Assembly (NCBI GenBank): GCA_903945195.1
Contig: CAJAUT010000006.1
Location: 493-64,492, forward strand
Direction: 5' to 3'
DNA: 64,000 nucleotides
Source of the DNA: an uncultured bacterium
Lineage (GTDB): Bacteria > Patescibacteriota > Microgenomatia > UBA1400 > UBA12108
Each line of letters begins with the position of its first letter. Positions within the stretch are counted from its first letter, which is position 1. Below, in pieces: positions 2,757 to 56,124 of this stretch. Below the pieces are notes generated by a model, which saw only the letters and a list, made by a program, of their open reading frames with translations, was not told the DNA's origin and ran no database searches. A program made the position numbers and the translations under genes.

Positions 2757-2920
2757 TAAATCTCAAATCCCACCTCGGGCGCGCGATGTTTTATCGCATC
2801 TAGCCAAACTCGACGGGAGAAATACAAATATCGATGTACCTATCCGGACTACTTAAACACCGAGATTAGCCCATTATATCAATCAATTTGTACCTTCGAT
2901 AATTGTGCTATGTCTTCTAG

Positions 2921-3000
2921 TGCCGAGGAGAGGACTTGAACCTCCATGAATTACTTCACACGCACCTCAAGCGTGCGCGTCTACCATTTCGCCACCTCGG
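2921..3000 (-). tRNA. tRNA-Leu (anticodon GAG), long variable arm
   Basis: Reverse complement GCCGAGGTGGCGAAATGGTAGACGCGCACGCTTGAGGTGCGTGTGAAGTAATTCATGGAGGTTCAAGTCCTCTCCTCGGCA. Anticodon stem CACGC/GCGTG, loop TTGAGGT. T arm GGAGG-TTCAAGT-CCTCT. Confidence 0.8.
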
Positions 3001-3336
3001 CAATTTGCAAAGATTAGTATTTCTACCAACTTTAGCAGTATTAACTTGTTTGTGTACCATTTCGCCCGCCTGCAACAGTTGTGCTGTAAGCACTGCGGGC
3101 AGGCCACCTCGGCAATTTGCAAAGATTAGTATTTCTACCAACTTTAGCAGTATTAACTTGTTTGTGTACCATTTCGCCCGCCTGCAACAGTTGTGCTGTA
3201 AGCACTGCGGGCAGGCCACCTCGGCAATCAATAAAAGTCAGGTATTGCTACCAACTTTATCTTATTAACTTGTTTGTCTACCATTTCGCCCGCCTGCAAC
3301 AGCTGTGCTGTAAGCACTGCGGGCAGGCCACCTCGG
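2991..3336. repeat. Tandem array of three 112-bp units (2991-3102, 3103-3214, 3215-3326) plus a 10-bp terminal partial (3327-3336). Each unit is the tRNA-Leu 5' end (nt 1-10), a 38-bp imperfect-palindrome hairpin, tRNA nt ~11-23, then ~50 bp of spacer.
   Basis: Units 1 and 2 are identical. Unit 3 has a diverged spacer but a conserved hairpin and tRNA pieces. Period measured from recurring CCACCTCGGC at 2991, 3103, 3215 and 3327. Confidence 0.9.
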
Positions 3337-3387
3337 CTTATTTAACGTGCAGGAGCAATTATACTACACCAAGTATGATTCTTAACT

Positions 3388-8066: not shown

Positions 8067-8399
8067 TTATAATCTGTCAAGCCTTTCCTCTGCAAGTTTC
8101 AACTCTTTGCTGGGTAGTTTATTAGTTTTCTTCTTAAATGAATTAAGCAACACAAATTGCGAGTTATGCCATGTATACAATAATCGAATCGGAACTTTAC
8201 CTGAAGTTCGTAGTTCGTATATGGTGCTACTAATTCTCTTAGCATATGGCAAAGATAACTTCGGACCATATACTTTAAGCAAGTCCATAACTCGCATTAC
8301 TTTATTAAAAGTTGCATCATCCAAAGAATAAATAAATTCTTCAACTGGCTTATCGTCGCGACTATTTGCATAAAAACCCAAAATCCATGACATAACCAA
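8067..8399 (-). CDS. RelE/ParE-superfamily toxin (HigB/Gp49-like)
   Basis: ~110-aa protein upstream of and co-oriented with the HTH antitoxin. Typical toxin-first HigBA arrangement. Confidence 0.5.
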   Translation of the reverse strand: MVMSWILGFYANSRDDKPVEEFIYSLDDATFNKVMRVMDLLKVYGPKLSLPYAKRISSTIYELRTSGKVPIRLLYTWHNSQFVLLNSFKKKTNKLPSKELKLAEERLDRL

Positions 8400-8449
8400 A
8401 TTATGACATATCAGATTATTCTTTGGTAGAATACATTCACGTAAATAGC

Positions 8450-8523
8450 TGCGGGATCGTCTAATGGTAGGACTCGGGACTTTGAATCCCGCTATCTAGG
8501 TTCGAACCCTAGTCCCGCAACCA
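8450..8523 (+). tRNA. tRNA-Gln (anticodon TTG)
   Basis: TGCGGGA-TC-GTC-TAATGGTAG-GAC-T-CGGGA-CTTTGAA-TCCCG-CTAT-CTAGG-TTCGAAC-CCTAG-TCCCGCA-A-CCA. Anticodon TTG. Confidence 0.8.
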
Positions 8524-10098
8524 CATAGGATTAGTAGGAATAAGATCAGGTCTTTTGCTCAATATATCAGCATATTTAGTAAGTTCGAACGTTTTCTTTT
8601 CTTTTATTGACCAATCTGAGACTTTTGAAAAAACATAATACGAATTTTTCAGCTGTATAGATACTATTTTATCTTTTAGTAAAAAGTTCGAACCCAAGTC
8701 TCTGACCACTCTACCTTTACCCATATCATCAGCTTTCTTAAACTTCTGACTTGCTGTTAATGCAAACTCCATCTCGTCTAGCAATTCTCGGTAACTACGC
8801 CTAACAGGTAGAGCATCTTCTGTACTTTTGAGTATGGTTATTTGATCAGCAATCTTCTTTTTGGCTGGCTTATACTCAGCATCAGTAATTGTCCCATCTA
8901 GCAACTTCTCAAGTAAAAGGGAAGATCTTTTCTCTAGTACAGCAATATCTTTTGATTTATCAAGAACACTGACAGATTCTTGCTTATTTTCTTCAGTCTC
9001 TAAATATGATGACCATTTACTAGCCCAGGATAAGAATTCTTTAGGAATACGAATACTTTTTACAACCTCCTCTAATTGTTCGTTAATCACCGACTTTGAT
9101 ATAGGAGGTTGTACACATGATTGTTGTTGTGACTTATGAGAACAGCGGTAGTAATCGTACGGAACGGTAGTATTAGAGCTTTTGTTAAATTTAAATTTGC
9201 GTGACCCTGAAACCATGCAAGAACAGTCTGCACAAAAGAATAACCCTCTGTAAGGAAAATCATGCTTGCTTCTGAGTGATTTGTGATTAGGATTAATTTT
9301 GGTTTGCACTAAATCAAAAACTTCCTTTGTGACCATTGGTTTGTGCTTGCCATGATACCAATTACCAGACCTCTTAGGCCACTCGAATTCACCATAAAAG
9401 AAAGGATTAGAGATCATCCTGTAGAACCCTGACCTACAAATCAACTCATCTTTGCCACCAGCATCTTTCCATGCTCTACAACCCTCCTCATAGGCCTCAA
9501 CAGGTCGTTTACCCTGCAAGATGGAGTACCAGCAGGACTTTAGATATGGAAAGCGTTTAGTGTCAGGCACAATAGTGCGATAACCCATAAGTTTTTGAGG
9601 CGTATTTTTGTATCCCTCAGGTACTGGAGCAGGTAGCCATCCCATTTTGGCTTTAGCAGTCATCCCACGTTTCACATCAACACTTTTGTTATCATTCTCG
9701 AGTTTAGCCTGACCCCACTCAAAACCTAGAAAGAATCTATCAGTTGGAGAAGCCACATAAGAACGACTAGGAGTAACAATGGTTTGCAGTAACCCCTGAT
9801 CCATTAGGTAGATCATTGCACCTGAATCAACGGAGTTACGAGATAAACGGTTAGGATGCCAGACCAAGATACCGTTAATCTTCTTCTGACCAATCAGGCT
9901 AATCATCTCGTTAAAAGCAGGTCTACCTGGTTTTTTGGCAGATTTAGATTCCTTAAATGTTGCCACAAGGGTAATTCCTAGCTTACTTGCGAGTTTCTTA
10001 ATCTCATCTTCTTGAGCAGGAAGCGATAAGGCTTGGCGATCATCGCTTTCTGAGGATTTACGAAAATAAGCACAGTATTTAATTTCCATGGCTTGCAT
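8509..10098 (-). CDS. Large serine recombinase (integrase)
   Basis: N-terminal resolvase domain (YFRKSSESDDRQALSLPAQ...ILVWHPNRLSRN), recombinase domain and Cys-rich zinc-ribbon region. 3' end overlaps tRNA-Gln. Confidence 0.85.
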   Translation of the reverse strand: MQAMEIKYCAYFRKSSESDDRQALSLPAQEDEIKKLASKLGITLVATFKESKSAKKPGRPAFNEMISLIGQKKINGILVWHPNRLSRNSVDSGAMIYLMDQGLLQTIVTPSRSYVASPTDRFFLGFEWGQAKLENDNKSVDVKRGMTAKAKMGWLPAPVPEGYKNTPQKLMGYRTIVPDTKRFPYLKSCWYSILQGKRPVEAYEEGCRAWKDAGGKDELICRSGFYRMISNPFFYGEFEWPKRSGNWYHGKHKPMVTKEVFDLVQTKINPNHKSLRSKHDFPYRGLFFCADCSCMVSGSRKFKFNKSSNTTVPYDYYRCSHKSQQQSCVQPPISKSVINEQLEEVVKSIRIPKEFLSWASKWSSYLETEENKQESVSVLDKSKDIAVLEKRSSLLLEKLLDGTITDAEYKPAKKKIADQITILKSTEDALPVRRSYRELLDEMEFALTASQKFKKADDMGKGRVVRDLGSNFLLKDKIVSIQLKNSYYVFSKVSDWSIKEKKTFELTKYADILSKRPDLIPTNPMWLRD

Positions 10099-10099
10099 T

Positions 10100-10296
10100 A
10101 TACCGCCCTCCTAAAATTGTACTTCTCATGCATCGTTTAATGACTGTTAGTAAAGAGTCATTAAACGGGGTCGCAAAAAACATTCTGGTTATGATGTTTT
10201 TCGTCCTATGGCCGAAAAACATCAATTTAGATGATTTTGGGCTTACCCTTGTCAAGGTCGCTTCGCTCCCTTGACAACAATTCCAACCCCTAGCCG
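10100..10296. promoter_or_regulatory. Non-coding region dense in inverted repeats (possible recombinase operator, attP or replication origin)
   Basis: CGTTTAATGACT/AGTCATTAAACG (12-bp IR), GTTTTTCG/CGAAAAAC (8-bp IR) and TTGTCAAGG/CCTTGACAA (9-bp IR), all read directly. Confidence 0.3.
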
Positions 10297-11406
10297 TTAC
10301 CATGTCGCCTCCTCCTCAACCGCAGGCACAGGGAGCAAAGCCTCCTGCGTAGGCTTTTTGAGTAACTCATAACCTAGAGCAAAAGGAGCATTTACTTTGT
10401 TAATGACTAGCTCACTAGGAATGGAAAGGGAAGTAATAGGACTATCCTTCATAACTACCCCAACACCTGACTCAGCAATCATCTTCAGATTACGAGTAAT
10501 TGTGCTGTTGTTGTAGATCATCTTCAAATTCTGCTTTTGCGCAGGACTACCCACGTAGAGCTGGTGAAACAAAAACAGATTTTTGGCTTTAACTTCACCA
10601 TGAACAACAGAAAGTAAATCAAAAATGGTTTTAGGAGAATCAATCCTAATCTCGCTGGAGCGAATGAGTTTAGAAAATAGGGAATTGAGAATGGAGTAGA
10701 CATAGTCTCGATTTTCTAGATCAGCTAAATGGAAACCTCCTCGCTTATCCTTAAAAAGATCATTGAGTTTGGCCTTACGAAGTTGCATCTCAAACCTAAG
10801 TACACCTTCACTTTCAATCTTCATGGCGTCAGCATATTCGCGGTTATACTCTCGCAAATCTCGAAAACCCTTATCAACATACTCAGGACTTTTGAGGTAA
10901 AAGATGCCTGAGTAGGCCTTGCCACGATAAACGATAGAGGTATCGTAATTAGCAGTCATTTTACGTGGGTAGCTATACCCTCGCAGACTATTGAGCAAAG
11001 ATTGAGCTAACTCCTGAGTAGGTAGCTTCCATGCGTAGCAAAGATCTAATCGTTGTAAAACCCAATCATTGACCGGGACGTACTTTACATGAAACCAATC
11101 ACCCATCTCGAGCCTAATCTCATTTAATAAAGCCATCAGATTATCGGGGTAGTACAGATAGACGTTCTGACCATAAACGAGTTTAGGAATGGAAAATTCA
11201 GCATATAGGTCATGGCGAGGAAGCTTCTCGTTGTAAACCATGAACAAGTGAATCGTAAAACTATTATGATATACGAATGTCAGGTTGCACTGTTTACAAA
11301 CAACCTTTCCCTTAAAATCATGTTTTGTAGTAACTACCTGGTGCAAACTCATATCATCAAAATCAACGTGAGTTATGGGAATTTTTAGCTTAATCGTGTC
11401 AATCAT
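10297..11406 (-). CDS. Hypothetical protein, possibly a rolling-circle replication initiator (Rep_trans-like)
   Basis: A Y-x-K then LRFEMQLR stretch recalls the Rep_trans family. Sits in the integrated element next to the IR-rich region. Weak. Confidence 0.3.
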   Translation of the reverse strand: MIDTIKLKIPITHVDFDDMSLHQVVTTKHDFKGKVVCKQCNLTFVYHNSFTIHLFMVYNEKLPRHDLYAEFSIPKLVYGQNVYLYYPDNLMALLNEIRLEMGDWFHVKYVPVNDWVLQRLDLCYAWKLPTQELAQSLLNSLRGYSYPRKMTANYDTSIVYRGKAYSGIFYLKSPEYVDKGFRDLREYNREYADAMKIESEGVLRFEMQLRKAKLNDLFKDKRGGFHLADLENRDYVYSILNSLFSKLIRSSEIRIDSPKTIFDLLSVVHGEVKAKNLFLFHQLYVGSPAQKQNLKMIYNNSTITRNLKMIAESGVGVVMKDSPITSLSIPSELVINKVNAPFALGYELLKKPTQEALLPVPAVEEEATW

Positions 11407-13116: not shown

Positions 13117-13482
13117 ATGACCGAAACAACCCCAATTCCATTAGACGCAGTAATCTATGAACGTTTTAAAGAATTTGGGGCCATGCAAGCCTACGAATAT
13201 CTTGATGGTGATAAAGCTGCAAGAGAAGTTCAAAAGAAATCGTTCTTGAGTGGGGAAATTGAAAATCCCAAATTAGATTACCCCAAAATTGACCTATCTT
13301 TACTAGAGAGTAGAGAGAATCAACTACTAGATCTCAAAGCTGATATTTTAAAAGATGAACCAAATGAAACCGTAAAGCAAGTATATCGTTGGAAAATAAA
13401 CGAAAAAATTGCAGAAATAGGGTTAAGTGACATTTTGCGTTGGTTTTTCACTCCTGTTTCCGTTTCAGTAGTAAAGCAATAA
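13117..13482 (+). CDS. Hypothetical protein
   Basis: ORF only. Confidence 0.25.
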   Translation: MTETTPIPLDAVIYERFKEFGAMQAYEYLDGDKAAREVQKKSFLSGEIENPKLDYPKIDLSLLESRENQLLDLKADILKDEPNETVKQVYRWKINEKIAEIGLSDILRWFFTPVSVSVVKQ

Positions 13483-14380
13483 TTTGTCGCCTTTGAAGTA
13501 GTTTTGTGCCGCGATGATGATCTATTAGTCGTTGGATCTGGGCATTGATTCCACCCTCAATTCGGTTAGAGGTGTTTGGTATTTGTGGATAGCGGAGATA
13601 CTGAAAAAGATTGGGGAGAGCATTCTTTAAATGCGAGTGAGAGGCATGGAGGTGACCGTGAGTGTAGTGCCACTTGCGACGCCCCGTGGGAGTTAGTTTT
13701 TCTTGATAGGTTCTCTCTTTGAGGAATGCCCGATACTGCTGATACCAAGATTTATAGGTGAGCAACCAAGTTCTCAAATCATCCTTGGATTTCACTAGGA
13801 CGATTTGATTAACAAGGTATTTAAGTTTTCTAGCTGCCTCTGTTTCTGGGTGTTTGGTGAGGAGCAAGTTAATTTGATGGATCACGTGGAACTGGCACCT
13901 TTGGATGATCACTCCAGGGTAGCGGAGCTTGATTGCCTTAAGCATTCCTTTCTGTCCATCACATATAACTGCACGGGGAAAGGCACTGATACTATTCAAA
14001 AAAGTCAGCCAGGTGGAGGAGTTTTCTGTATAAGTGAAGTGCCAGCCAACTACTTGATTGAGTGGATTCTGAGCAATGAGAACGGTTGCACCATACTCAA
14101 CATAGTATCCATCAATAATGAAGATGTCGCTTTGGATGAGGTGACAACTTGGAGTGATCTCCTCATCCCTAAAAGGGGTAAACCACCTATCTAGAGTGCG
14201 ACGAGTGACTCTGTACGCCACCCCAAAGTCTGACAAAGTTAACTTGCTGAGGAGCCATTTCTGATACAGCTGACGGTGATATTTCTGAGTGAGATCGACT
14301 CTTAACCTCGTTTCATTAGACCCACAACGAGGACATCGGTAGTGTGCCTTTCCACTTCTATGGCTTCCCCATTTCTGCAT
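13448..14380 (-). CDS. IS1595/IS1-like DDE transposase with an N-terminal zinc ribbon
   Basis: CPRCGS zinc ribbon and a C-terminal TSNRIEGGINAQIQRL...HHRG motif typical of IS1595-family transposases. Confidence 0.6.
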   Translation of the reverse strand: MQKWGSHRSGKAHYRCPRCGSNETRLRVDLTQKYHRQLYQKWLLSKLTLSDFGVAYRVTRRTLDRWFTPFRDEEITPSCHLIQSDIFIIDGYYVEYGATVLIAQNPLNQVVGWHFTYTENSSTWLTFLNSISAFPRAVICDGQKGMLKAIKLRYPGVIIQRCQFHVIHQINLLLTKHPETEAARKLKYLVNQIVLVKSKDDLRTWLLTYKSWYQQYRAFLKERTYQEKLTPTGRRKWHYTHGHLHASHSHLKNALPNLFQYLRYPQIPNTSNRIEGGINAQIQRLIDHHRGTKLLQRRQIIALLLKRKQE

Positions 14381-14438
14381 CGGTTTTCGACACTTGGAAC
14401 ACCATTTTTTTTGCCATATTAATCTCCAGGTAGCTTAA

Positions 14439-15548
14439 TTGTTTCTGATTATATCCTATCCATCCGTCAAATCACTCGATTTTACCAACGCAAAATGTCA
14501 CTTAACCCCAGAAATACGCATGCTTCATGCATCAGAGTCAGGTGACATGAGGAAATTTAAAAAGTATTCCGAATTTGTATACGGGAAACCATCAGAAGAT
14601 ATTTTCGGATATACCGTTAACTCAATTCGATCCGAAGCAACATTAAATCTCGCAAGTGATGACGAAACAATTCAGGCAGCAGCAAGAGAGTTATTGGAAA
14701 TACTACCAAGCGAATTACCTCATCATGAAATAAGTTTAATACCAAATGATGAGGCAATAGCAAGCATGAGACAGGCTACGCTTGAATCTGCAGGAGACTT
14801 AATAGAGCTCCCCGAAGGCACTACTTTCGATGCTTCGAGTATTAAGACTACTTTTGACAGTGCTCTAGAAACTCTCAAGGCTGATGGATGGCAAGTGGTA
14901 ATAGATACAAGTAGTAAGTCTGGGATTAGTGTCGACCAAGAAAAACAACAAGTTAAAATACCTGAAGGAAGAACGTTGACTCCCAATAAGTTGCAAACAC
15001 TGATAGTACATGAAATAGGAACGCACGTAAAACGCAGGGTAACTGGGGAACGATCCAAACTTAAGCTTTTGGGATTAGGCCTCGATAGGTATGAGACTGG
15101 CGAGGAAGGGGTAGCAACAGCAAGAGAACAAGCTATGTCAGGGAAAGTAGATGACTTTGCAGGATTAGACGGTCACCTAGCAATTGGCCTTGCGTACGGT
15201 TTAGATGGCACACCAAGAAACTTTAGAGAAGTGTACGAAGTACTGAAAAAATATTACAAATTAACCAGTCTAGTCGGAAAAGAAGCTAAGGAAACTGTTG
15301 AAGACAAATCTTCAGATAAAGCATGGAATCGTTGCGTGCGTACGTTTAGAGGAAGTGACTCAAAAACAAAAGGGGCATGTTTCACAAAGGACATCGTCTA
15401 TAGAGAAGGAAATATTGGTACTTGGAATGTTATACGAAACAACCCACAAGAAATGGCGAGATTTGATGTAGGTAAGTACGATCCCAGTAACCCTAGACAT
15501 ATTTGGATACTGGAAACTTTAGGCATTGAAGACGCTGAAATTGTATAA
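14439..15548 (+). CDS. DUF1704/QEGLA-motif family protein with an HExxH (putative zinc metallopeptidase). The true start is possibly an internal Met at ~14520.
   Basis: HEIGTH motif and a GEEGVAT stretch resembling the QEGLA motif. Confidence 0.4.
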   Translation: MFLIISYPSVKSLDFTNAKCHLTPEIRMLHASESGDMRKFKKYSEFVYGKPSEDIFGYTVNSIRSEATLNLASDDETIQAAARELLEILPSELPHHEISLIPNDEAIASMRQATLESAGDLIELPEGTTFDASSIKTTFDSALETLKADGWQVVIDTSSKSGISVDQEKQQVKIPEGRTLTPNKLQTLIVHEIGTHVKRRVTGERSKLKLLGLGLDRYETGEEGVATAREQAMSGKVDDFAGLDGHLAIGLAYGLDGTPRNFREVYEVLKKYYKLTSLVGKEAKETVEDKSSDKAWNRCVRTFRGSDSKTKGACFTKDIVYREGNIGTWNVIRNNPQEMARFDVGKYDPSNPRHIWILETLGIEDAEIV

Positions 15549-21195: not shown

Positions 21196-21687
21196 ATGAA
21201 TAAAACATTGGTCCTAGTGATCTGTACCTTAATCCTACTTATATCTGGTACAAAAAAAGTTTCAGCAGTTGAACACGATCTACGTGCTGAGCAAATGCGC
21301 GTTGTACTTTCAAAATACAACTCACCCATGGTAGGCCTAGAAGATGTACTTATCAGTACTGCCGAAAAATATGGTCTAGACTGGACTCTCATGGCCGCTA
21401 TTGCTGGCACCGAATCTAGCTTTGCCAAACGCATGCCTTACCAGTGCAACAACCCTTATGGTTGGGGTATCTACGGCAACAACAAGCTATGCTTTAAATC
21501 CCTAGAAGATTCCATAGAAGGCGTGGCTTCTGGCCTAGCCAAGAAGTACAATATTAGCTCTATCGAGTCTATCGCTCACACCTACAACACTGTCTCTACA
21601 GATGGCTGGATTATGCACACCAAGTTTTTCATGAATAAGATCAAAAATGCAGAAGTACCTGTATCTGCTCTCCCAATTGAGTTATAA
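21196..21687 (+). CDS. Secreted GH73-like peptidoglycan hydrolase (paralog of the upstream gene)
   Basis: Signal peptide. AIAGTESSF...NNPYGWGI. Confidence 0.4.
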   Translation: MNKTLVLVICTLILLISGTKKVSAVEHDLRAEQMRVVLSKYNSPMVGLEDVLISTAEKYGLDWTLMAAIAGTESSFAKRMPYQCNNPYGWGIYGNNKLCFKSLEDSIEGVASGLAKKYNISSIESIAHTYNTVSTDGWIMHTKFFMNKIKNAEVPVSALPIEL

Positions 21688-21700: not shown

Positions 21701-21928
21701 GCCGAGGTGGCCCGCCTGCAACGCTTGTGCGTAAGCACTGCGGGCAGGTGAAATGGTATATACACAAGTTAATAAGCAAATCATACTTGAAAGGGTATAA
21801 TCTTTCTTGTATTAGCCGAGGTGGCCCGCCTGCAACGCTTGTGCGTAAGCACTGCGGGCAGGTGAAATGGTATATACACAAGTTAATAAGCAAATCATAC
21901 TTGAAAGGGTATAATCTTTCTTGTATTA
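21701..21928 (+). repeat. Two tandem 114-bp units (21701-21814, 21815-21928). Each is tRNA-Leu nt 1-10 (GCCGAGGTGG), a 38-bp hairpin (CCCGCCTGCAACGCTTGTGCGTAAGCACTGCGGGCAGG), tRNA nt 11-20 (TGAAATGGTA), then spacer carrying GGGTATAAT.
   Basis: Units are identical. Immediately 5' of the intact tRNA-Leu(TAG). Same architecture as the 2991-3336 array but the hairpin is in the opposite orientation relative to the tRNA. Confidence 0.9.
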
Positions 21929-22012
21929 GCCGAGGTGGTGAAATGGTAGACACGCACGCTTTAGGAGCGTGTGCTTTACGGCATGGAGGTTCAAGTCCTC
22001 TCCTCGGCACCA
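21929..22012 (+). tRNA. tRNA-Leu (anticodon TAG), with encoded CCA
   Basis: GCCGAGGTGGTGAAATGGTAGACACGCACGCTTTAGGAGCGTGTGCTTTACGGCATGGAGGTTCAAGTCCTCTCCTCGGCACCA. Anticodon loop TTTAGGA. Confidence 0.8.
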
Positions 22013-22482
22013 TACAGAACTTTTTAAATAGCTTTTCAAATTATCCCGATTTGACGAGCTATTTTCGGGTTCAAGCGGTCCACTTTTATCATTACTCTCT
22101 TTTGCACCCTTCTTTAACTTCAAAAAGATAAATCTAGGCTGATACTCCAGTTTTTGATCTAGTAAGATCGGGTTCAAGCCGATTGCCTTGAAAATGACTT
22201 TTTTGTCCTCTGAGTCACCGTTTTCAAACCTTTGATTTGCCAGTAGCGCAAACTCAAATGAGTCCTTTGCGATATCCGCCCAATCAGATCCATTCTTGTT
22301 AGCGTGCGTTAACTGTTGAGTAATATTATCTTTCTCTATCATCAGCTCCCGCTTTCTATCCGCAAACTCAGTATCAGACAGTAAACTCCCATCATTCTCT
22401 GGAGAAATCTTGAGTGCTATCAGATTATCAATCCTGCGGTTTACCCCGTCTAAAGCGGTCTGGAGAGCCTCTGATTGGATAA
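22013..22482 (-). pseudogene. Remnant (C-terminal ~150 aa only) of a large serine recombinase. Its 3' end abuts and reads into tRNA-Leu(TAG).
   Basis: Translation ...SDTEFADRKRELMIEKDN...SFEFALLANQRFENGDSEDKKVIFKAIG parallels the C-terminal tail of the 8509-10098 recombinase (...EMEFALTASQKFKKADDMGKGRVVRDLG). An in-frame stop sits upstream at ~22483 and there is no catalytic domain. Confidence 0.45.
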
Positions 22483-22508
22483 TCTATAAAAACAGTTAGC
22501 TTAAGAGT

Positions 22509-23288
22509 CTATTCTTGATCAGAAGAAATAATCTCAGTCAACGGTAAATTCTCAATCATTTTTTTAATTTGAGTATCGTCTACTTGCCGAGAATAAAAAA
22601 TTTGACGCATTTCTTGCTCTTTTTGCGTACCGATAATTGACCAATTATTAAGGATGTTGGCTTTATTGATCGTGTGTCTGATTTCTTTTTGTTTAATATA
22701 CTTTATGATTTCAGCCAAATCAATTTTGTAAGAATTAAGGATGAGATAGAGGTCATAAAAATCCCTGTATCTGGCCCGATCATTTGTGGCTCGAATCTTC
22801 TCAGCACATATTTCTTTAATATCCATCACGTTTACTTCAAAATCTAAACCCCAAACATTAGTGTATTTCATCTTTTGAGGTGGAAGTAAAACATTTTGCA
22901 AGAAATCTATTTCAACCTTGAGTGAATTAGGCTGTAGGAGCGGGCCAGTATATTGGAGTTTTTCTAATTTAATGGTTGCGTTTGATAAAAAATCCTTCTT
23001 GATTGCCAAGAAATCAATCCCGGTAAACATTCCCCGTACAACCTCGAGAGTTAGATTGGTTTTGTTTGACGAAAAATCCAAATCTTCGGAAAAACGATAT
23101 TGGCTGAGATAACAATGATGTAGTGCCGTACCACCCTTAAAGATTAAGGTTTTCCCCAAAGTAGATTTTGAGATAATCTGCATTACAATTGCTAAAAAGT
23201 AGTCCTTTTCAGCGATATGAAGAGGATAATGTAGTGTCTTCCTACTGATTATTTCCAATTGTTTGCGCGTAATCAGAGGTGAGGTCAT
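22509..23288 (-). CDS. AbiEii/AbiGii-family nucleotidyltransferase toxin (type IV TA / abortive infection)
   Basis: FKGGTAL...RFSEDLDF motif characteristic of the DUF1814/AbiEii nucleotidyltransferases. Confidence 0.6.
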   Translation of the reverse strand: MTSPLITRKQLEIISRKTLHYPLHIAEKDYFLAIVMQIISKSTLGKTLIFKGGTALHHCYLSQYRFSEDLDFSSNKTNLTLEVVRGMFTGIDFLAIKKDFLSNATIKLEKLQYTGPLLQPNSLKVEIDFLQNVLLPPQKMKYTNVWGLDFEVNVMDIKEICAEKIRATNDRARYRDFYDLYLILNSYKIDLAEIIKYIKQKEIRHTINKANILNNWSIIGTQKEQEMRQIFYSRQVDDTQIKKMIENLPLTEIISSDQE

Positions 23289-24073
23289 TTTGATTGGTAT
23301 TTTTCAAAATAAGGATTGTAGTATAGGCGCCATTTTGCATTAAACTTCGTGTCCCCTGGAATCATCCAATGAGTTCCACTTTTACTCTTCACAGTCTCAT
23401 ATAGCGTTTTCGAGTCAAACCCAATTAGATCAAACAATAATCCAAAAATTTTAATTGTGGTTAGTGAAAACCTAGCAATATATTCATTAAGTAGATCGAT
23501 ATTTAAATCTTTTTTGTGTTCTAGTAGTTTTTCGATAACCAAGTCAATTGAATATTGGCTCTTATGAAAATTTACTATATCTATTAAAGCCTTTTCCGGA
23601 GTAGCGATACGGGTAAGGTGACCATCTATACTTATTTCTTTCCAACCAAAGTAATAATCGGCTTTTGTTTTGATAAAGGAATATTCAACGGAGTGCAAAA
23701 CAACTGACTTATATTTTTTTAACGAAACAGAAACTGTTTTGTCTGTTAGCTGGTCAAACATACCGTACTGCTGTAAGGCAGACTCAAATGAAACATAGGA
23801 CTCAGAAACCAATAAATTGGCTACTGTTGAGGGGGTTAATGATAGTGACCCTCTGGTACTTAAGTCAGAAATGGCATAGAGACTACGTTTAATTCTAATA
23901 AGCCAGCCATTTTTGACTAGTTTGGTAATCAAGTTTTTAGCCTGCTTGTAATCCCAGTTCACCTTAGCTTCATCGTAAATTTGGTCAAATGTAACAATCT
24001 GGCTATGTTTTACGATCAAATTCTCGAGTAACTCGCTCTGCTTGGCTGAAAGAATAGTTTGTTTTGTAGTCAT
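23285..24073 (-). CDS. AbiEi-family antitoxin/transcriptional regulator
   Basis: Upstream partner with a 4-bp overlap. Winged-helix-like N-terminus. Size typical of AbiEi. Confidence 0.5.
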   Translation of the reverse strand: MTTKQTILSAKQSELLENLIVKHSQIVTFDQIYDEAKVNWDYKQAKNLITKLVKNGWLIRIKRSLYAISDLSTRGSLSLTPSTVANLLVSESYVSFESALQQYGMFDQLTDKTVSVSLKKYKSVVLHSVEYSFIKTKADYYFGWKEISIDGHLTRIATPEKALIDIVNFHKSQYSIDLVIEKLLEHKKDLNIDLLNEYIARFSLTTIKIFGLLFDLIGFDSKTLYETVKSKSGTHWMIPGDTKFNAKWRLYYNPYFEKYQSK

Positions 24074-24209
24074 ATAGTCATTAGTATGTGTGACTTAATA
24101 TATACAGACTAAACCAATATTTAGCACCTGTCAAGGGGTTAGGGAAGAAAACACCTAAACTATAACCAACTAGCACACATCTTTAAAAAAGATCTGTTAA
24201 ATTACCACC

Positions 24210-24461
24210 ATGTTAAAGCGTAAAACAACATACGAGCAGATTGGCCAGAACTTGCGAACAATCAGACAACAAATGGGATTTATGCAAGTTGATGTAGCTG
24301 TAGCCGCTGATTTAAACAGAACATATGTCAGTAGAATTGAAACGGGCAAAGCTAGGATTACATTTAACCTGATCGTGAAATTAGTGCATGGTCTAGAAAT
24401 ATCCTCAAATGAATTACTTTTTTGGAAAGGAGATGAAACTGATCATGCGAAAATATCTTAA
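24210..24461 (+). CDS. XRE-family HTH transcriptional regulator
   Basis: QVDVAVAADLNRTYVSRIETGK helix-turn-helix. Confidence 0.5.
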   Translation: MLKRKTTYEQIGQNLRTIRQQMGFMQVDVAVAADLNRTYVSRIETGKARITFNLIVKLVHGLEISSNELLFWKGDETDHAKIS

Positions 24462-24684
24462 ATGGGTTGATGCACCAATTTGGGTGAAAATTGGTAGGAA
24501 CATAAGAGACTGTCGAAAATGGAAGGACTTATCTGCAGAACAAGTTGCACTTAGGTCAAAAATTGATTTAAGACGGTACAAAAGAATGGAGAGAGGTGTT
24601 ACAAAAGACATAAACTTCGATGAGACACATCGAATTGCGTTAGCCATAAAAGTTGACGAAGAAGATATTGATCATCATCATTAA
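24409..24684 (+). CDS. Second small HTH-like regulator (overlaps the first)
   Basis: LSAEQVALRSKIDLRRYKRMERG, weak HTH. Confidence 0.3.
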   Translation: MNYFFGKEMKLIMRKYLKWVDAPIWVKIGRNIRDCRKWKDLSAEQVALRSKIDLRRYKRMERGVTKDINFDETHRIALAIKVDEEDIDHHH

Positions 24685-25159
24685 ATTAACACTATCGAAT
24701 ACCTAAAAGATAAACAATATAAAATCTTCTATGCCCAGGGCAAATGGAAGTACCTGCCGGAAATAGTATGGAGGATTCCAGTATTCAGGTATATAAAACG
24801 GTGCAAATATTGCAAACGGCAGCAGTAGTAATCCTCCTAACAGCATTTCCCGTCGTAGATCCTTTCGTGCAATATAGATACAGACAAACGGTATTCCCAG
24901 AATCAGACTACCAATTAAATATCCGCTTTCAATTCCAAATGTCATATAAAAAGTATACAAACAATATTCACAATTGACAAAGCCGAACAAAGAACAATAA
25001 AACAAACCCCCGATGGCACCAATATAATCTATTGCCTATACACGAACGGACTTTCGATAATTACCTCGTTCTGGCTTTTCTCCGAGTCAGTGAGAAAATG
25101 AGAAGACAAGGTCTTTTCATCGTGTAGAGGGGTTGTAATCGAGTTTAGGTTGATTGATA

Positions 25160-25232
25160 ACATCCATTAACCTGATAAAATGCACTAGGTAATTGTCGGA
25201 GAGTGGTTCAAAATAAAAATCGTCCTCCGCAC
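25160..25232. repeat. ~75-bp direct repeat (copy 1), with CCTGATAAAATG and GGTTCAAAATAAAAATCGTCCTC. Copy 2 at 26885-26960 flanks the other side of the DUF4143 ATPase gene.
   Basis: Alignment of the two regions read directly. The 28-bp core is identical except for 1 nt. Confidence 0.6.
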
Positions 25233-25336
25233 TAGAAGAGATAGCAAAATATCAGCAAAGAAAATATTTCTGTGCCTGGTAGACAATATGCAAATACAAT
25301 AATTTTGATATTTTGTTACAAAATTATTGACCAGGA

Positions 25337-25362
25337 GGACAGGACTTGAACCATTTTATTTC
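25337..25362 (-). other. Orphan tRNA-Leu-like 3' fragment (GGTTCAAGTCCTGTCCTCCTGG), a likely att-site or decayed-integration scar
   Basis: Matches the T-arm and 3' acceptor of the tRNA-Leu genes (GGTTCAAGTCCTCTCCTCGGCA) but there is no 5' half. Confidence 0.35.
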
Positions 25363-25648
25363 CTAGCCCTATACCAGAATCAACTATGGGTCAAGACGTG
25401 ACAAAAATTCATTTATCAATTACAGAAGCTAGAGAAATACTTGGTGAAATCGCCGTCAGCATGTCAGATAATGAAATAGAAATACAACTTGAAAATTTGA
25501 AGTATTTAGCAGAATCCTGGATTGATAATTTCGAAAAATCAAATTTCTGACAAAATAGCTAACGAAAATAGATTGTGTAATATTGCAGTACGATTGCAAA
25601 ATTGCACAGAAAGTGTATTATTAACTTAATATATAAAGCTATAAAAAT

Positions 25649-26824
25649 ATGTATATTAATAGAGCAATCAAACAACAAGTTTTAGAATTAAAAAAAGGTT
25701 TTCCTGTTGTGGTTATTACCGGCCCAAGACAATCAGGAAAAACTACATTTTTACAACACAATTTTCCAAAAAATAAATACTTTAACTTGGAAGATCCAAT
25801 AACTTTACAAATTATTAAGGACGATCCTGTAACTTTTTTCAGAGACAATCCTAAAGATATAATTATTGACGAAGTACAAAGATTCCCAGAGCTTTTGTCT
25901 CATATTCAAGTTTTGGTTGATAAAAGACAGGAAATGGGTAGTATTCTACTCAGCGGATCACAAAACCTATTACTTTCAGAAAAAGTTTCGCAAACCCTTG
26001 CAGGAAGAGCAGCGTATCAAACAGTATTACCTCTAAGTTTTGATGAACTAGCAAAATCTAAATTTCTCATCAAAAATAGATTTAATCAGATCTTAAAAGG
26101 TGGATATCCTAGTATATACACCCGGGATGTGTCACCAAAAACATATTTTAAACAATATATAGCTACATACACAGAAAGAGACATTAGACAGATCAGAAAT
26201 GTTAGTGAATTATCCCAATTTCAAAAATTTATGATTTTACTTGCAGGGAGAGTAGGACAACTCCTTAACGTTTCTTCTCTAGCTACTGATGCAGGAATTT
26301 CTCCAAACACAGCAGAAGACTGGATTTCTATTTTGGAAGCAAGTTATGTGGTCTATAGATTACAACCATATTTTAAAAATGTAGGTAAAAGGTTAATAAA
26401 ATCACCAAAACTCTATTTTTACGATACAGGCTTATTGACTACTTTACTTAATATTCATGACAAAAAGATACTTCAATCTCACTATCTAATAGGTAATATC
26501 TTTGAAAACTTTATAGTTTCTGAATTTGTTAAAGAAATTAATAATAATGAAATTTCTGCACAACTGTATTTTTTCAGAGACAATCATGGCAACGAAGTAG
26601 ACCTAATAATCGACAGTGGAAGTACACAATTACCTGTAGAAATAAAATCATCCGCAAGTTACAGTCCTGAATTTTCAAAAGGTCTAAATTATTGGAACGA
26701 GATAGTCAAAGGAATTACCGGATATATAATCTATGGTGGAAGTGAAAAGATTACAATTAAGGACAAAATAATCTTGCCATGGACAGATTTTGCAAAAGTA
26801 TTTAAAAACATATCCAATAAATAG
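25649..26824 (+). CDS. DUF4143-family AAA+ ATPase
   Basis: Walker A GPRQSGKTT, Walker B IIIDEVQ and a C-terminal DUF4143-like region. Confidence 0.65.
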   Translation: MYINRAIKQQVLELKKGFPVVVITGPRQSGKTTFLQHNFPKNKYFNLEDPITLQIIKDDPVTFFRDNPKDIIIDEVQRFPELLSHIQVLVDKRQEMGSILLSGSQNLLLSEKVSQTLAGRAAYQTVLPLSFDELAKSKFLIKNRFNQILKGGYPSIYTRDVSPKTYFKQYIATYTERDIRQIRNVSELSQFQKFMILLAGRVGQLLNVSSLATDAGISPNTAEDWISILEASYVVYRLQPYFKNVGKRLIKSPKLYFYDTGLLTTLLNIHDKKILQSHYLIGNIFENFIVSEFVKEINNNEISAQLYFFRDNHGNEVDLIIDSGSTQLPVEIKSSASYSPEFSKGLNYWNEIVKGITGYIIYGGSEKITIKDKIILPWTDFAKVFKNISNK

Positions 26825-27018
26825 ACTAGCGATGAAGATTACTTCTTGTGATCATTTTCTTCTCCTACAACTGTATAATCTTCCATCATTCTGGTAAAAT
26901 GTATCAGGTATTGGGACGAAACGCTAGAAAGCGGTTCAAAATAAAAATCGTCCTCGGCACAAAATAATTCCCTCCCATGTATTACATGAAAGGGAATTAT
27001 CTATATTTAACTTTAAGA

Positions 27019-32408: not shown

Positions 32409-32702
32409 ATGACACCTAAAAATCTAACTTCAGATCAAAAATTAGACTTACTACTTGAGAAGGTCTCCACGCTGGACTCCAAGGTCTCCACACTCGATTC
32501 GAAGGTCGAAGCGCTTACAATCACAGTCAATCGTATTGATATAAATGTTAAAGAGATCATTGCAACCCTCGCCGAAATTGCCTTACTCGCTGGAGAAACA
32601 GCTGATCGCGTCACCAAACTTGAAAATAAAAGCTCACCAGCCTCGACTAGCTCGAGTCTAGGCGGGTTTACCCCCTTTAAAAGCGGGGCGTTTGTAGCGT
32701 AA
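32409..32702 (+). CDS. Small coiled-coil protein with a duplicated VSTLDSK heptad, unknown function
   Basis: ORF only. Internal tandem repeat visible at the DNA level. Confidence 0.3.
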   Translation: MTPKNLTSDQKLDLLLEKVSTLDSKVSTLDSKVEALTITVNRIDINVKEIIATLAEIALLAGETADRVTKLENKSSPASTSSSLGGFTPFKSGAFVA

Positions 32703-47919: not shown

Positions 47920-48398
47920 TAAATATTTTCAAAAAAGGCTTCACATTAATAGAATTACTAATTGTCATTGCCATCATTGGGATTCTCACGGCTTTAGTTA
48001 CTACCAATCTATCTGGAGCTAGATCTCGCGCCAGAGACACTAGGCGAAAATCAGATTTAAGATCTATAGAACAATCGTTACGTCTTTATTACAACGACGC
48101 CAAAAAATTCCCCACAGATGACGGCAGTGACAACATCAGCATCGCCAGTTGGGGATCACCATTTGCTGTAGGATCTACAATCTACATGTCCTCATTGCCC
48201 AAAGATCCAATTTCTACTGCTACCTCAACAGTAACCTACAAATATGATTCTCTTGGTGATGATAAATATCTCATCATAGCTGTACTGGAAAATGCTTCAG
48301 ATCCAGACATAGCAGAATCTCAACTCAAATGTACTAGTAATTATAGTAGTTATATCGGGGTCAAAACAACCACAGATTATCTAGTCTGTGCTCAATAA
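47916..48398 (+). CDS. Type IV prepilin
   Basis: KKGFTLIELLIVIAIIG. Confidence 0.7.
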   Translation: MINIFKKGFTLIELLIVIAIIGILTALVTTNLSGARSRARDTRRKSDLRSIEQSLRLYYNDAKKFPTDDGSDNISIASWGSPFAVGSTIYMSSLPKDPISTATSTVTYKYDSLGDDKYLIIAVLENASDPDIAESQLKCTSNYSSYIGVKTTTDYLVCAQ

Positions 48399-48400
48399 AT

Positions 48401-48799: not shown

Positions 48800-48802
48800 A
48801 TT

Positions 48803-56085: not shown

Positions 56086-56105
56086 GCATTCTTTACAAAG
56101 TTACG
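56086..56105. repeat. REP-like hairpin repeat, copy a (CAAAGTTACGATCTTTGCAA), just upstream of the HUH transposase start
   Basis: Family consensus TTGCAAAGTTACGATCCTTGCAA. The self-complementary TTGCAA hexamers can pair around an 11-nt loop. Confidence 0.6.
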
Positions 56106-56124
56106 ATCTTTGCAATAATAAATA

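What the first reader, a model, noticed from the sequence alone, without database searches (positions are those of the whole stretch)
21701..22482. Second fragment-hairpin array, intact tRNA-Leu(TAG) and a decayed serine-recombinase remnant: a fossil integration hotspot
Three serine recombinases or remnants in this window (12-1631, 8509-10098 and the 22013-22482 fragment) all end by reading into the 3' end of an oppositely oriented tRNA (Lys, Gln, Leu). This points to a family of tRNA-targeting integrases whose attachment core lies within their own 3' coding end.

The remnant here keeps only the C-terminal ~150 aa. An in-frame stop upstream marks the truncation. The neighbouring AbiE pair and HTH regulators are probably cargo of the degraded element.
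Basis: partly seen in the sequence, partly recalled or inferred. Interest (0 to 1): 0.55.

Follow-up and report, generated by a model that had tools for sequence, protein, structure and literature searches.

The report
Two mobile-element relics flanking tRNA-Leu
A working leucine tRNA gene of a Microgenomates (CPR) bacterium has two unrelated genetic parasites beside it: upstream, two copies of a gutted small nuclease-gene cassette, and downstream, a 3.2-kb element that has lost its integrase yet still turns up as an excised circle in another sample.

Summary
tRNA-Leu(TAG) at 21929-22012 is intact. Two exact 114-bp units lie upstream, and 157 open codons of a large serine recombinase (LSR) C-terminus read into the tRNA 3' end.

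The interpretation needs splitting into two unrelated stories.

3' side: the remnant is the left end of a 3,222-bp integrative element (22011-25232). It carries the AbiE pair, two HTH genes and a small membrane ORF, and is bounded by GCAC cores.
- A near-identical strain has the empty site (L168).
- Another sample holds the closed attP junction at 99.8% identity (L001).
- The element therefore lacks a catalytic integrase but still recombines.
- An intact 569-aa homolog exists (P0061).
- The crossover lies in the integrase's own W-C codons.

5' side: the array is not an integration scar. Each unit is tRNA nt 1-20, split after nt 10 by a conserved 38-bp quasi-palindrome, followed by vestiges of a small GIY-YIG nuclease gene. 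A syntenic relative (L138) has the intact gene at this spot. Similar cassettes sit beside tRNA-Leu, Gln, Ser and Arg genes in other Patescibacteria. I found no published description of them. The palindrome's role is unknown.

The parts
21701..21814 (+). Array unit 1. It consists of tRNA-Leu nt 1-10 (21701-21710), the palindrome (21711-21748), tRNA nt 11-20 (21749-21758) and a 56-nt tail (21759-21814) that contains TATAAT at 21796-21801.
21815..21928 (+). Array unit 2, identical to unit 1. Its palindrome is at 21825-21862. Its TATAAT is at 21910-21915, ending 13 nt before the tRNA start. The near-identical strain L168 has only one unit.
21929..22012 (+). Intact tRNA-Leu(TAG). The attL crossover core GCAC is at 22007-22010, so the last two bases of the CCA come from the element.
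22013..22483 (-). C-terminal 157 codons of a large serine recombinase. It lacks the catalytic, recombinase and zinc-ribbon domains. An in-frame stop lies at 22484-22486.
22011..25232 (.). A 3,222-bp non-autonomous integrative element. It holds the recombinase remnant, AbiEii (22509-23288, minus), AbiEi (23285-24073, minus), two HTH genes (24210-24461 and 24409-24684), a 100-aa membrane ORF (24703-25005, minus), a P arm at 25203-25228 and the attR core GCAC at 25229-25232.
25233..26960 (.). A second inserted segment, absent from L168. It starts with TAGAAGAGATAGCA and carries a DUF4143/AAA_14 ATPase gene (25649-26824). It ends with a second copy of the P arm (26927-26956) followed by GCAC.
   Evidence: (D12)
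2991..3337 (-). The sister array: three 112-bp units upstream of tRNA-Leu(GAG) at 2920-3001. The palindrome is the same but inverted relative to the tRNA. The syntenic contig L147 has a single unit.

Best explanation
The interval is a composite of a functional tRNA-Leu(TAG) gene and the remains of two independent selfish elements.

(A) 3' side.
- A large serine recombinase integrated a small element at GCAC, at the discriminator/CCA end of the tRNA.
- In this recombinase family the attP core lies about 25-40 codons before the stop of the integrase gene (24 residues after ..WC in P0061, about 40 in P0001 and P0007). Integration therefore swaps the protein's tail for tRNA-antisense codons.
- The copy in the window has lost everything upstream of the last 157 codons. 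The break sits next to the AbiE toxin-antitoxin pair.
- What remains is a 3,222-bp non-autonomous element with intact att arms.
- Inferred: an integrase supplied in trans still excises it.
- Inferred: older integration debris lies beyond it, so newcomers insert at the tRNA and push older DNA outwards.

(B) 5' side.
- Related Microgenomates carry, at exactly this place, a roughly 300-bp cassette that encodes an 80-90-aa single-domain GIY-YIG nuclease of the UPF0213/SLX1 type.
- The cassette sits after tRNA nt 20 and ends with a fresh copy of nt 1-20, so the tRNA stays whole. A -10 box lies in the last codons of the ORF (..R-Y-N = AGG TAT AAT).
- The displaced upstream copy of nt 1-20 is split after nt 10 by a conserved GC-rich quasi-palindrome.
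- Inferred: in the window the ORF has been deleted down to its ends, and the resulting 114-bp mini-cassette was duplicated in tandem by unequal recombination between the repeated tRNA 5' sequences.
- Inferred and untested: the cassette spreads by nuclease-stimulated gene conversion that uses tRNA sequence as homology on both sides.
For: (A) 3' element.
- L001 (3,223 nt, Logan ERR12084920) is a closed cycle collinear with window 25203 down to 22001 at 99.8%. Its last 30 nt return to 25232-25203. This gives the junction ..AAATCGTCCTCC|GCAC|CATACAGAAC.
- L168 is 99.9% identical to the window upstream of the tRNA. It has the empty site ..CTCCTCG|GCAC|ATTATTTAATAC and then runs straight into the gene found at window 27721 onwards.
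- The remnant family reaches LSRs. P0006 has Zn_ribbon_recom (26.1 bits) and aligns collinearly with the window LSR at residues 285-495 (E 4e-9). hhalign gives 92% probability. P0061 (E 2e-76) has all three LSR domains.
- Homologs share ..KSS(V/L/I)WC and then diverge. They continue into tRNA-Leu antisense, into a P-arm-encoded tail TIW(N/D)DVGTYLTS.., or into other tails.
- The tRNA-Gln LSR cluster diverges after ..NPMW.

(B) 5' array.
- L138 is syntenic: its upstream gene is 80% identical and its tRNA 98% identical. It has the layout fragment, hairpin, fragment, intact GIY-YIG ORF (Pfam E 1.6e-15), tRNA. The ORF's last 7 codons are tRNA nt 1-21.
- The last 25 nt of the unit tail match the 3' end of the L138 ORF, with 7 of 2000 shuffles scoring as well.
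- The tail of array-1 unit A matches the L120 ORF, with 11 of 300 shuffles scoring as well.
- Six loci were reached through protein homologs alone. All six lie beside a tRNA gene. Five have a partial tRNA duplicate (two at tRNA-Leu, one each at Gln, Arg and Ser). Four have a GC-rich palindrome inside that duplicate.
- L135 has the window's palindrome family together with an intact ORF at tRNA-Gln.
- Among 25 tRNAs checked, only Leu and Gln genes had an upstream copy of nt 1-9 together with one of nt 11-19 (L135 Leu-CAG matched nt 1-9 only); one Gly (L127, nt 1-9 only) and one Leu (L165, nt 11-19 only) had stray 9-mers.
- Unit number varies: 1 in L168 against 2 here, and 1 in L147 against 3 here.
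Against: - The window contains no GIY-YIG gene (tblastn).
- Apart from its 3' end, the unit tail is not significantly similar to the ORFs, which are AT-rich.
- No nuclease activity, target site or homing has been shown. The protein has no DNA-binding domain.
- The palindrome's origin and role are unexplained. It occurs in both orientations and at other positions (after nt 1 and nt 18 in L163, nt 14 in Ser, nt 20 in Arg).
- Solo palindrome copies exist outside tRNA fragments (window 32637-32666; L162).
- The circular form rests on one short-read contig and could be a tandem dimer.
- No helper integrase of this family is present in the 64-kb window.
- L138, L120 and L135 were found with a DNA pattern that required the fragment-insert architecture, so they are not an unbiased sample.
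Confidence: 0.75

Rival explanations
1. One reading: the fragment-hairpin units are scars left by repeated serine-recombinase integrations at this tRNA.
For: - The units lie next to a tRNA that is a proven integration site.
- The palindrome is an imperfect inverted repeat of about the size of an att site.
Against: - The recombinase crossover is at the 3' GCAC. The units hold tRNA nt 1-20 and lie on the 5' side.
- Arrays occur without a remnant (L138, L147, L135, L145).
- The remnant occurs without an array (L003; L165).
- The palindrome is unlike the P, P' or B arms.
- The same architecture surrounds intact GIY-YIG genes.
Confidence: 0.04
2. The units are kept for a host function. They could form a tandem promoter or leader array that boosts tRNA-Leu expression, or they could produce small hairpin RNAs.
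For: - Each unit ends with TATAAT 13 nt before the next GCCGAGG.
- ORF-less units persist in six or more loci.
- The copies are 100% identical.
- The hairpin folds stably, at -27 kcal/mol as RNA.
Against: - The consensus scan finds no -35/-10 pair in the array.
- No Rfam family matches.
- The hairpin occurs in both orientations relative to transcription, which argues against a sequence-specific RNA role.
- Many tRNA-Leu genes in relatives lack the units.
- Folding z-scores are modest, from -1.4 to -3.4.
Confidence: 0.12
3. The hairpin is an autonomous REP/MITE-like palindromic repeat unrelated to the GIY-YIG gene. It accumulates in redundant tRNA fragments simply because insertions there are harmless.
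For: - Solo copies exist: one in frame inside ORF 32409-32702 and one in an intergenic spot in L162.
- Both orientations occur.
- Insertion points vary (L163, L169, L173).
- The L162 solo copy is 38/39 identical to the array-1 hairpin although it comes from a different organism.
Against: - About 25 of about 28 copies in about 170 kb lie inside tRNA fragments. That is far more than neutral tolerance predicts.
- Most sit at the same nt 10/11 junction in two different tRNA species.
- No transposase is associated with them.
Confidence: 0.2
4. The 157-codon remnant is not dead. It is a retained C-terminal protein, for example one that modulates a helper integrase, and the 3.2-kb element is a dedicated satellite.
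For: - The frame is open, with an ATG at 22342.
- It is identical in L001.
- Many homologs in the databases are short.
- The attP arms are intact and apparently in use.
Against: - Relatives are truncated at different points or frameshifted (P0009, P0016, L165).
- The frame has to stay open across the P' arm anyway, because the att site overlaps it.
- No ribosome-binding site or expression evidence is available.
Confidence: 0.12

Closest known systems
Large serine recombinase integrases of phages and integrative elements (phiC31, Bxb1, A118, TP901-1 type)
   Same: - The intact homolog P0061 has the Resolvase, Recombinase and zinc-ribbon architecture plus a C-terminal region.
- The identity shared by attP and attB is very short (GCAC).
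- The arms carry imperfect dyad A/T tracts.
   Different: - The target is the 3' end of a tRNA gene. To my knowledge this is typical of tyrosine integrases and unusual for serine integrases.
- The crossover lies inside the integrase's own coding sequence, so the C-terminal tail changes with integration state.
- The copy in the window has no catalytic domain.
Elements whose attP lies inside a gene: SSV1-type archaeal integrases, and integration-dependent immunity in mycobacteriophages (Broussard et al. 2013). Cited from my own knowledge.
   Same: Integration changes the 3' end of an element gene because the attachment core is inside the ORF.
   Different: - Those systems use tyrosine recombinases. 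SSV1 splits its int gene, and the mycobacteriophages truncate a repressor.
- Here a serine recombinase gene loses only its last 25-40 codons.
- No regulatory consequence has been shown here.
Non-autonomous integrative elements (CIMEs, mobilizable islands, satellites)
   Same: - The element is flanked by functional att sites and lacks its own recombinase.
- It lies in tandem with other inserts at one tRNA.
- It carries an addiction or defence module (AbiE).
   Different: - The known cases depend mostly on tyrosine recombinases.
- This element is very small (3.2 kb).
- Its helper has not been identified.
Free-standing GIY-YIG homing endonuclease genes (T4 Seg proteins; SegB acts in the T4 tRNA gene cluster, PMC2330249)
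   Same: - A small GIY-YIG ORF inserted between or at conserved genes.
- Present or absent among close relatives.
- Placed so that the host gene stays functional.
   Different: - The protein is a bare 80-90-aa catalytic domain of the UPF0213/SLX1 branch (nearest PDB entries 1ywl, 1zg2 and SLX1). It has no DNA-binding domain.
- The cassette rebuilds the tRNA by a partial duplication.
- A conserved palindrome splits the spare copy.
- Cleavage has not been demonstrated.
Short palindromic repeats (REP/REPIN, Rickettsia palindromic elements)
   Same: - Imperfect GC-rich palindromes of 30-40 nt.
- Conserved ends with variable interiors.
- Copies can sit in frame inside ORFs (window 32637-32666).
   Different: - There is no GTAG head and no RAYT nearby.
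- Copies are concentrated in tRNA 5' fragments next to GIY-YIG genes rather than dispersed between genes.

Membership tests
Large serine recombinase (remnant 22013-22483) | N-terminal resolvase catalytic domain with the serine nucleophile (PF00239) | tested here: not met
   Pfam finds no domain in the 157 to 185 aa. In-frame stops lie upstream. The domain is present in the intact homolog P0061.
Large serine recombinase (remnant 22013-22483) | Recombinase domain (PF07508) and zinc ribbon (PF13408) | tested here: not met
   Both are absent from the remnant. The zinc ribbon is present in the longer homologs P0006 and P0060, and both domains are present in P0061.
Large serine recombinase (remnant 22013-22483) | C-terminal region homologous to that of bona fide LSRs | tested here: met
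   - hhalign 92% probability, E 5e-7, against window LSR residues 319-485.
- E 2e-76 to residues 358-545 of P0061.
- BLASTP E 3e-5.
Large serine recombinase (remnant 22013-22483) | attP x attB recombination with only a few shared central bases, giving attL and attR | tested here: met
   All four sites were recovered and share only GCAC: attB in L168, attP in L001, attL and attR in the window. Catalysis itself cannot be tested here.
Type IV toxin-antitoxin AbiE | Adjacent AbiEi antitoxin and AbiEii nucleotidyltransferase genes | tested here: met
   AbiEii E 5e-31. AbiEi_4 E 6e-7. The two ORFs overlap, at 22509-23288 and 23285-24073.
Free-standing GIY-YIG homing endonuclease cassette (array units) | A GIY-YIG ORF within the unit | tested here: not met
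   tblastn finds none in the window. Only the ORF ends remain. The ORF is intact in L138, L135, L157, L163, L156, L169 and L173.
Free-standing GIY-YIG homing endonuclease cassette (array units) | Presence or absence at a conserved target among relatives | tested here: met
   - The same tRNA-Leu(TAG) locus holds an intact cassette in L138 and mini-units in the window and L168.
- Other tRNA-Leu genes have none: L003, L165, and tRNA-Leu(GAG) of L135.
Free-standing GIY-YIG homing endonuclease cassette (array units) | Site-specific cleavage of the cassette-free allele, followed by gene conversion | not testable with these tools
   This needs in-vitro cleavage of tRNA-Leu or tRNA-Gln gene DNA by the L138 or L135 protein.
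REP/RAYT or MITE-type palindromic repeat (the 38-nt hairpin) | Dispersed multicopy distribution with an associated transposase | tested here: inconclusive
   - The window has five copies, all in the two arrays, plus one copy of a sister family at 32637-32666.
- A solo copy occurs in L162.
- No RAYT or transposase link was seen.
- Whole genomes were not available.

The most novel reading that the evidence does not exclude
Patescibacterial tRNA genes (Leu, Gln, Ser, Arg) are colonised by an undescribed kind of selfish cassette.
- It encodes a bare SLX1/UPF0213-type GIY-YIG nuclease and is inserted in the D-arm coding region.
- It keeps the tRNA alive by carrying a replacement 5' (or 3') part and its own -10 box.
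- It is accompanied by a conserved GC-rich quasi-palindrome that splits the redundant tRNA copy.
- ORF-less mini-cassettes persist and amplify as tandem arrays such as the two in this window.
- The palindrome would be the nuclease's structural substrate or an immunity device, not a passenger.
Probability: 0.4. Interest if true: 0.72.

Novelty: new variant of a known kind. Interest (0 to 1): 0.6.

Why it matters
- It gives a complete, sequence-defined att set (attB, attP, attL, attR) for a serine integrase that targets a tRNA 3' end and carries its crossover inside its own coding tail. That is directly testable and possibly useful as a recombinase tool. It also bears on how mobile DNA moves in CPR bacteria, which cannot be cultured alone.
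- It shows a 3.2-kb integrase-less element carrying an AbiE defence/addiction module that still excises. This is a minimal satellite of an unknown helper.
- It uncovers a recurrent tRNA/GIY-YIG/palindrome architecture. This may be the first clue to what the very common single-domain bacterial SLX1-like nucleases do, and it explains otherwise puzzling tRNA 5'-fragment arrays in CPR genomes.

Tried and rejected
- Pfam and NCBIfam on the remnant gave nothing. Homology had to be reached through longer homologs and profiles.
- The genome-contig scan used too loose a pattern. It returned about 120 hits that were almost all chance.
- The viral-contig scan gave two chance hits.
- Rfam finds no family for the hairpin or the unit at gathering threshold or at E<=10.
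- The sigma-70 and terminator scans find nothing in the array.
- I first suspected that a 19-kb inversion between the two inverted tRNA-Leu genes explained why the downstream flank of L138 matches the window's tRNA-Leu(GAG) flank. I dropped this. The shared stretch is only about 86 nt and is better explained by related inserts at both tRNA-Leu genes.
- I looked for a tRNA-Gln 3'-end repeat that would mark the far end of the 8509-10098 element. Only chance-level matches appeared.
- A formal covariation test of the hairpin was not run. MAFFT does not align the variable interior in register, so the compensatory changes I list were read by eye.
- IS200/IS605-type strand-specific insertion was considered for the hairpin. 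It was rejected because the left flank differs between the two orientations.
Full report
WHAT IS THERE

ARAGORN and Rfam both call an intact tRNA-Leu(TAG) at 21929-22012 on the + strand. Two 100%-identical 114-bp tandem units lie directly upstream, at 21701-21814 and 21815-21928 (TRF score 480).

Read against the tRNA, each unit has four parts:
- GCCGAGGTGG, which is tRNA nt 1-10.
- The 38-nt imperfect palindrome CCCGCCTGCAACGCTTGTGCGTAAGCACTGCGGGCAGG.
- TGAAATGGTA, which is tRNA nt 11-20.
- A 56-nt tail that contains TATAAT 13 nt before the next GCCGAGG.

The palindrome pattern occurs five times in the window and never in 100 shuffles. The other three copies are in a sister array of three 112-bp units upstream of the oppositely oriented tRNA-Leu(GAG) at 2920-3001. 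In that array the palindrome is inverted relative to the tRNA. Both arrays therefore carry it in the same orientation on the window's + strand.

Downstream of the tRNA, the minus-strand frame is open for 157 codons (22483 to 22013). In-frame stops lie just upstream, and the frame continues through the tRNA antisense.

THE REMNANT IS THE C-TERMINUS OF A LARGE SERINE RECOMBINASE

Pfam and NCBIfam find nothing in the 157 residues. BLASTP to the window's recombinase 8509-10098 is weak (E 3e-5 over 53 aa). Longer relatives settle the matter.
- P0006 (72% identical) carries Zn_ribbon_recom above Pfam's cut-off. It aligns collinearly with residues 285-495 of the window recombinase (E 4e-9).
- A profile of nine family members matches that recombinase at residues 319-485 (hhalign 92% probability, E 5e-7). 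It matches the other recombinase, 12-1631, more weakly (65%, E 6e-5).
- The exhaustive HMMER search finds 1,358 relatives. Among them is P0061, 569 aa, E 2e-76 over its residues 358-545, with Resolvase, Recombinase and Zn_ribbon_recom domains.

THE REMNANT BELONGS TO A PRECISELY BOUNDED ELEMENT THAT STILL RECOMBINES

The exact remnant protein is encoded on L001, a 3,223-nt Logan contig from run ERR12084920.
- L001 is collinear with window 25203 down to 22001 at 99.8% identity. Its last 30 nt return to window 25232-25203. It is a closed cycle of 3,222 nt.
- Its junction reads ..GGTTCAAAATAAAAATCGTCCTCC|GCAC|CATACAGAACTTTTT... That is the right end of the window segment joined to its left end.
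- attL and attR share only about 10 nt of imperfect similarity. A k=31 assembler cannot invent this join, so the junction exists in the reads, as a circle or as a tandem copy.

The distance between the two GCAC cores in the window (22007-22010 and 25229-25232) is exactly 3,222 bp. The element contains:
- the recombinase remnant;
- AbiEii (E 5e-31) and AbiEi;
- two HTH_3 genes;
- a 100-aa membrane ORF.

A contig from a near-identical strain shows the empty site. L168 is 99.9% identical to the window over 3.4 kb upstream. It reads ..CTCCTCG|GCAC|ATTATTTAATACTTAAGG and runs straight into the gene found at window 27721 onwards. All four att sites are thus in hand, and they share only GCAC. This is the signature of a serine integrase rather than a tyrosine integrase with a long identical core.

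Relative to L168 the window carries 5.7 kb of extra DNA:
- the 3,222-bp element;
- a 1,728-bp segment (25233-26960) that ends in a second, 91%-identical copy of the P arm followed by GCAC (D12), and that carries a DUF4143 ATPase gene;
- about 740 bp more, with one ORF.

'Integration hotspot' is a fair description. 'Fossil' is not.

THE CROSSOVER LIES INSIDE THE INTEGRASE'S OWN 3' END

GCAC is read on the minus strand as part of the codons TGG TGC (W-C). Family members share ..KSS(V/L/I)WC and diverge immediately afterwards.
- Integrated copies continue with tRNA-Leu antisense (RGEDLNLH..).
- L001 continues GGRFLF*.
- P0001 and P0007 continue with a conserved tail of about 40 aa, TIW(N/D)DVGTYLTS... 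Its DNA is a homolog of the P arm (GGTTCCAACATCGTCCCAGATGGT|GCAC), so this is the attP form with the frame intact.
- P0061 has yet another 24-aa tail.

The tRNA-Gln recombinase shows the same geometry. Eleven cluster members agree up to ..NPMW, where W (TGG) is the complement of CCA, and then read LRD*, LPS*, LPG* or a longer tRNA antisense. The window's third recombinase (12-1631) reads ..CAW and then runs through tRNA-Lys.

To my knowledge, tRNA 3' ends are the usual territory of tyrosine integrases, and an attP inside the integrase ORF is known for SSV1-type tyrosine recombinases, not for serine integrases. Two searches of the held literature that combined serine recombinases with tRNA genes, attP or CPR bacteria found no description of this.

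THE 5' ARRAY IS A DIFFERENT STORY

The recombinase acts at the 3' end. The units contain the 5' end.
- Relatives with the remnant lack any array (L003; L165).
- Relatives with units lack the remnant (L138, L147, L135, L145).

The decisive locus is L138. Its upstream gene is 80% identical to window ORF 21196-21687, and its tRNA-Leu(TAG) is 98% identical. Between the two, L138 has:
- GCCGAGGTGG;
- a 31-nt palindrome (CCCGCCTAGACTCGCGTCCACGCGAGGCTGG);
- TGAAATGGTA, then T;
- an intact 89-codon ORF, MYFLYILKSETHDKTYVGITDN.. (Pfam GIY-YIG, E 1.6e-15).

The ORF's last seven codons, GCC GAG GTG GTG AAA TGG TAG, are nt 1-21 of the functional tRNA. Its codons ..AGG TAT AAT.. supply a -10 hexamer.

The last 25 nt of the window unit (AAAGGGTATAATCTTTCTTGTATTA) match the 3' end of that ORF, with 7 of 2000 shuffles scoring as well. 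The tail of the oldest array-1 unit resembles the 5' part of the GIY-YIG ORF in L120 through its YVGITD codons, with 11 of 300 shuffles scoring as well. Elsewhere the AT-rich tails are not significantly similar. The window holds no GIY-YIG gene.

I read each unit as an internally deleted cassette. The synteny and the shared architecture carry more weight here than the tail alignments.

THE ARCHITECTURE RECURS

Homologs of the L138 protein are 73-113-aa proteins of Microgenomates and Patescibacteria. Six loci were reached through these proteins alone, so they are not biased by my DNA pattern. All six lie beside tRNA genes.

| Locus | tRNA | Layout |
|---|---|---|
| L156 | Gln(CTG) | ORF flanked by duplicated tRNA nt 1-22; no palindrome |
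| L157-162 | Leu(CAA) | fragment+palindrome+fragment / ORF / fragment+palindrome+fragment / 24 nt / tRNA |
| L163 | Leu(CAA) | fragment nt 1-27 with two palindromes, after nt 1 and nt 18 |
| L169-172 | Arg(CCT) | intact tRNA / ORF / second tRNA copy with a palindrome after the D-loop |
| L173 | Ser(CGA) | nt 1-14 / palindrome / nt 15-22 / ORF / tRNA |
| L164 | next to Val and Asp | a tRNA 3' fragment follows the ORF |

Pattern-derived loci add three more observations:
- L120 has tRNA-Leu(TAA) with an ORF carrying one stop codon.
- L135 has tRNA-Gln(TTG) with the window's own palindrome family and an intact ORF.
- Single ORF-less units occur in L145, L135, L147, L127 and L002.

Among 25 tRNAs in these loci, upstream copies of nt 1-9 together with nt 11-19 were found only at Leu and Gln genes; L135 Leu-CAG matched nt 1-9 only, and two other tRNAs had a single stray 9-mer. 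Unit number varies between close relatives: one in L168 against two here, and one in L147 against three here.

The protein's nearest solved structures are the single-domain UPF0213 proteins 1ywl and 1zg2, and SLX1. This is the structure-specific branch of the superfamily, which has no DNA-binding module. PMC1564403 describes that branch as stand-alone minimal domains of unknown role, and mentions a fusion to the tRNA G18 methyltransferase TrmH.

Searches of the held literature for GIY-YIG combined with tRNA genes, tRNA-Leu, Patescibacteria or UPF0213 found no description of such cassettes.

THE PALINDROME

Two related families appear. Both share the terminal bases CCCGCCT../..GGC(A/T)GG.
- CCCGCCTGCA..TGCGGGCAGG occurs in the window, L145, L135, L147 and L162.
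- CCAGCCTCG..CTAGGCGGG occurs in L157, L163, L127, L120, inverted in L138, and in the window at 32637-32666.

The ends are invariant across organisms. This includes a C.A or C.T mismatch at the third pair. The interiors vary, with changes that keep small stems (ACAGC/GCTGT, ACGC/GCGT, TCGC/GCGA, AAAGC/GCTTT; GTGC/GCAC against ATGC/GCAT). I read these by eye and did not test them formally.

Other properties:
- The palindromes fold as DNA or RNA somewhat better than shuffles, with z-scores from -1.3 to -3.4.
- Both orientations occur in both families. That argues against a sequence-specific RNA function and for a DNA-level element.
- About 25 of about 28 copies in about 170 kb lie inside redundant tRNA fragments. 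The exceptions are an in-frame copy inside ORF 32409-32702 and an intergenic copy in L162 that is 38/39 identical to the array-1 hairpin.

Several roles are possible: a substrate of the structure-specific nuclease, a device that disrupts a cleavage site or a deletion-prone direct repeat in the spare copy, or a small parasite of the parasite. I cannot tell which.

HOW IT MOST LIKELY WORKS

Shown:
- the anatomy, the four att sites, the closed junction and the empty site;
- the intact homologs of both genes;
- the recurrence of the tRNA/GIY-YIG/palindrome layout;
- the copy-number polymorphism.

Inferred:
- An integrase of the P0061 type, supplied in trans, still excises the 3.2-kb element. AbiE may stabilise it.
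- Successive elements insert at the tRNA end and displace older ones outward.
- The GIY-YIG cassette spreads by break-induced gene conversion. The tRNA 5' fragment acts as left homology and the whole tRNA as right homology. This would explain why the only sequence duplicated is tRNA sequence, and why it matches the local tRNA species.
- The window's units arose by deletion of the ORF followed by unequal recombination between the repeated 5' sequences.

VERDICT

The title feature, the array, belongs to a second system that appears to be undescribed.

Taken alone, the integrative element is a new variant of a known kind. The cassette-plus-palindrome architecture is the more novel part. It rests on comparative anatomy only.

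Noticed in passing
window 2991-3337 and 1462-2919: The sister array has three 112-bp units at tRNA-Leu(GAG), where syntenic L147 has one. The window also has 1.46 kb, carrying an HTH-phosphoribosyltransferase gene (1779-2756), between tRNA-Leu(GAG) and tRNA-Lys. In L147 those two tRNAs are 4 nt apart. The insert begins TAGAAGACATAGCA, nearly the same 14 nt that follow attR at 25233.
   Followed up: partly
window 32637-32666: A 30-nt palindrome of the sister family (CCAGCCTCGACTAGCTCGAGTCTAGGCGGG) sits in frame near the 3' end of ORF 32409-32702, away from any tRNA. A 21-nt tandem repeat lies in the same ORF at 32460-32507.
   Followed up: partly
window 8067-11406: The intact serine recombinase at tRNA-Gln (8509-10098) is followed by a Phage_CRI/G2P-type rolling-circle replication protein gene (10297-11406). 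A Gp49/HigB-like gene (8067-8399) lies on the far side of tRNA-Gln from the recombinase, outside the putative element. This looks like an integrated inovirus-like or small replicon. Its far end was not found.
   Followed up: partly
window 13420-14508: An insertion sequence with perfect 25-bp terminal inverted repeats and a Mutator-family (IS256-like) transposase gene (13448-14380), lying inside the putative tRNA-Gln element.
   Followed up: no
window 25335-25352 (minus strand): An inverted tRNA-Leu T-arm/acceptor fragment (GGTTCAAGTCCTGTCCTC, 17 of 18 bases), 100 nt to the right of attR. It is probably debris of another integration. Its origin is unresolved.
   Followed up: partly
L165 1-100: In the MAG contig that carries P0006, the truncated recombinase gene is bounded upstream by another tRNA 3' fragment in antisense (..TGGTGCTGGACTTGAACCTCCAC..). 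This suggests truncation by a secondary recombination at an att-like site rather than by random deletion.
   Followed up: no
(protein databases): Most relatives of the remnant's C-terminal domain in the databases are short, 100-300 aa. Part of this is truncation at contig ends, but several are genuine remnants next to tRNA-Leu. Decayed copies of this integrase family seem unusually common in CPR genomes.
   Followed up: partly
window 47933-48891 and 56092-56829: There are three paralogous type IV pilin-like N-termini (D2). There is also a set of 24-nt direct and inverted repeats (ACAAAGTTACGATCCTTGCAA), four copies within 740 bp, that look like operator sites.
   Followed up: no
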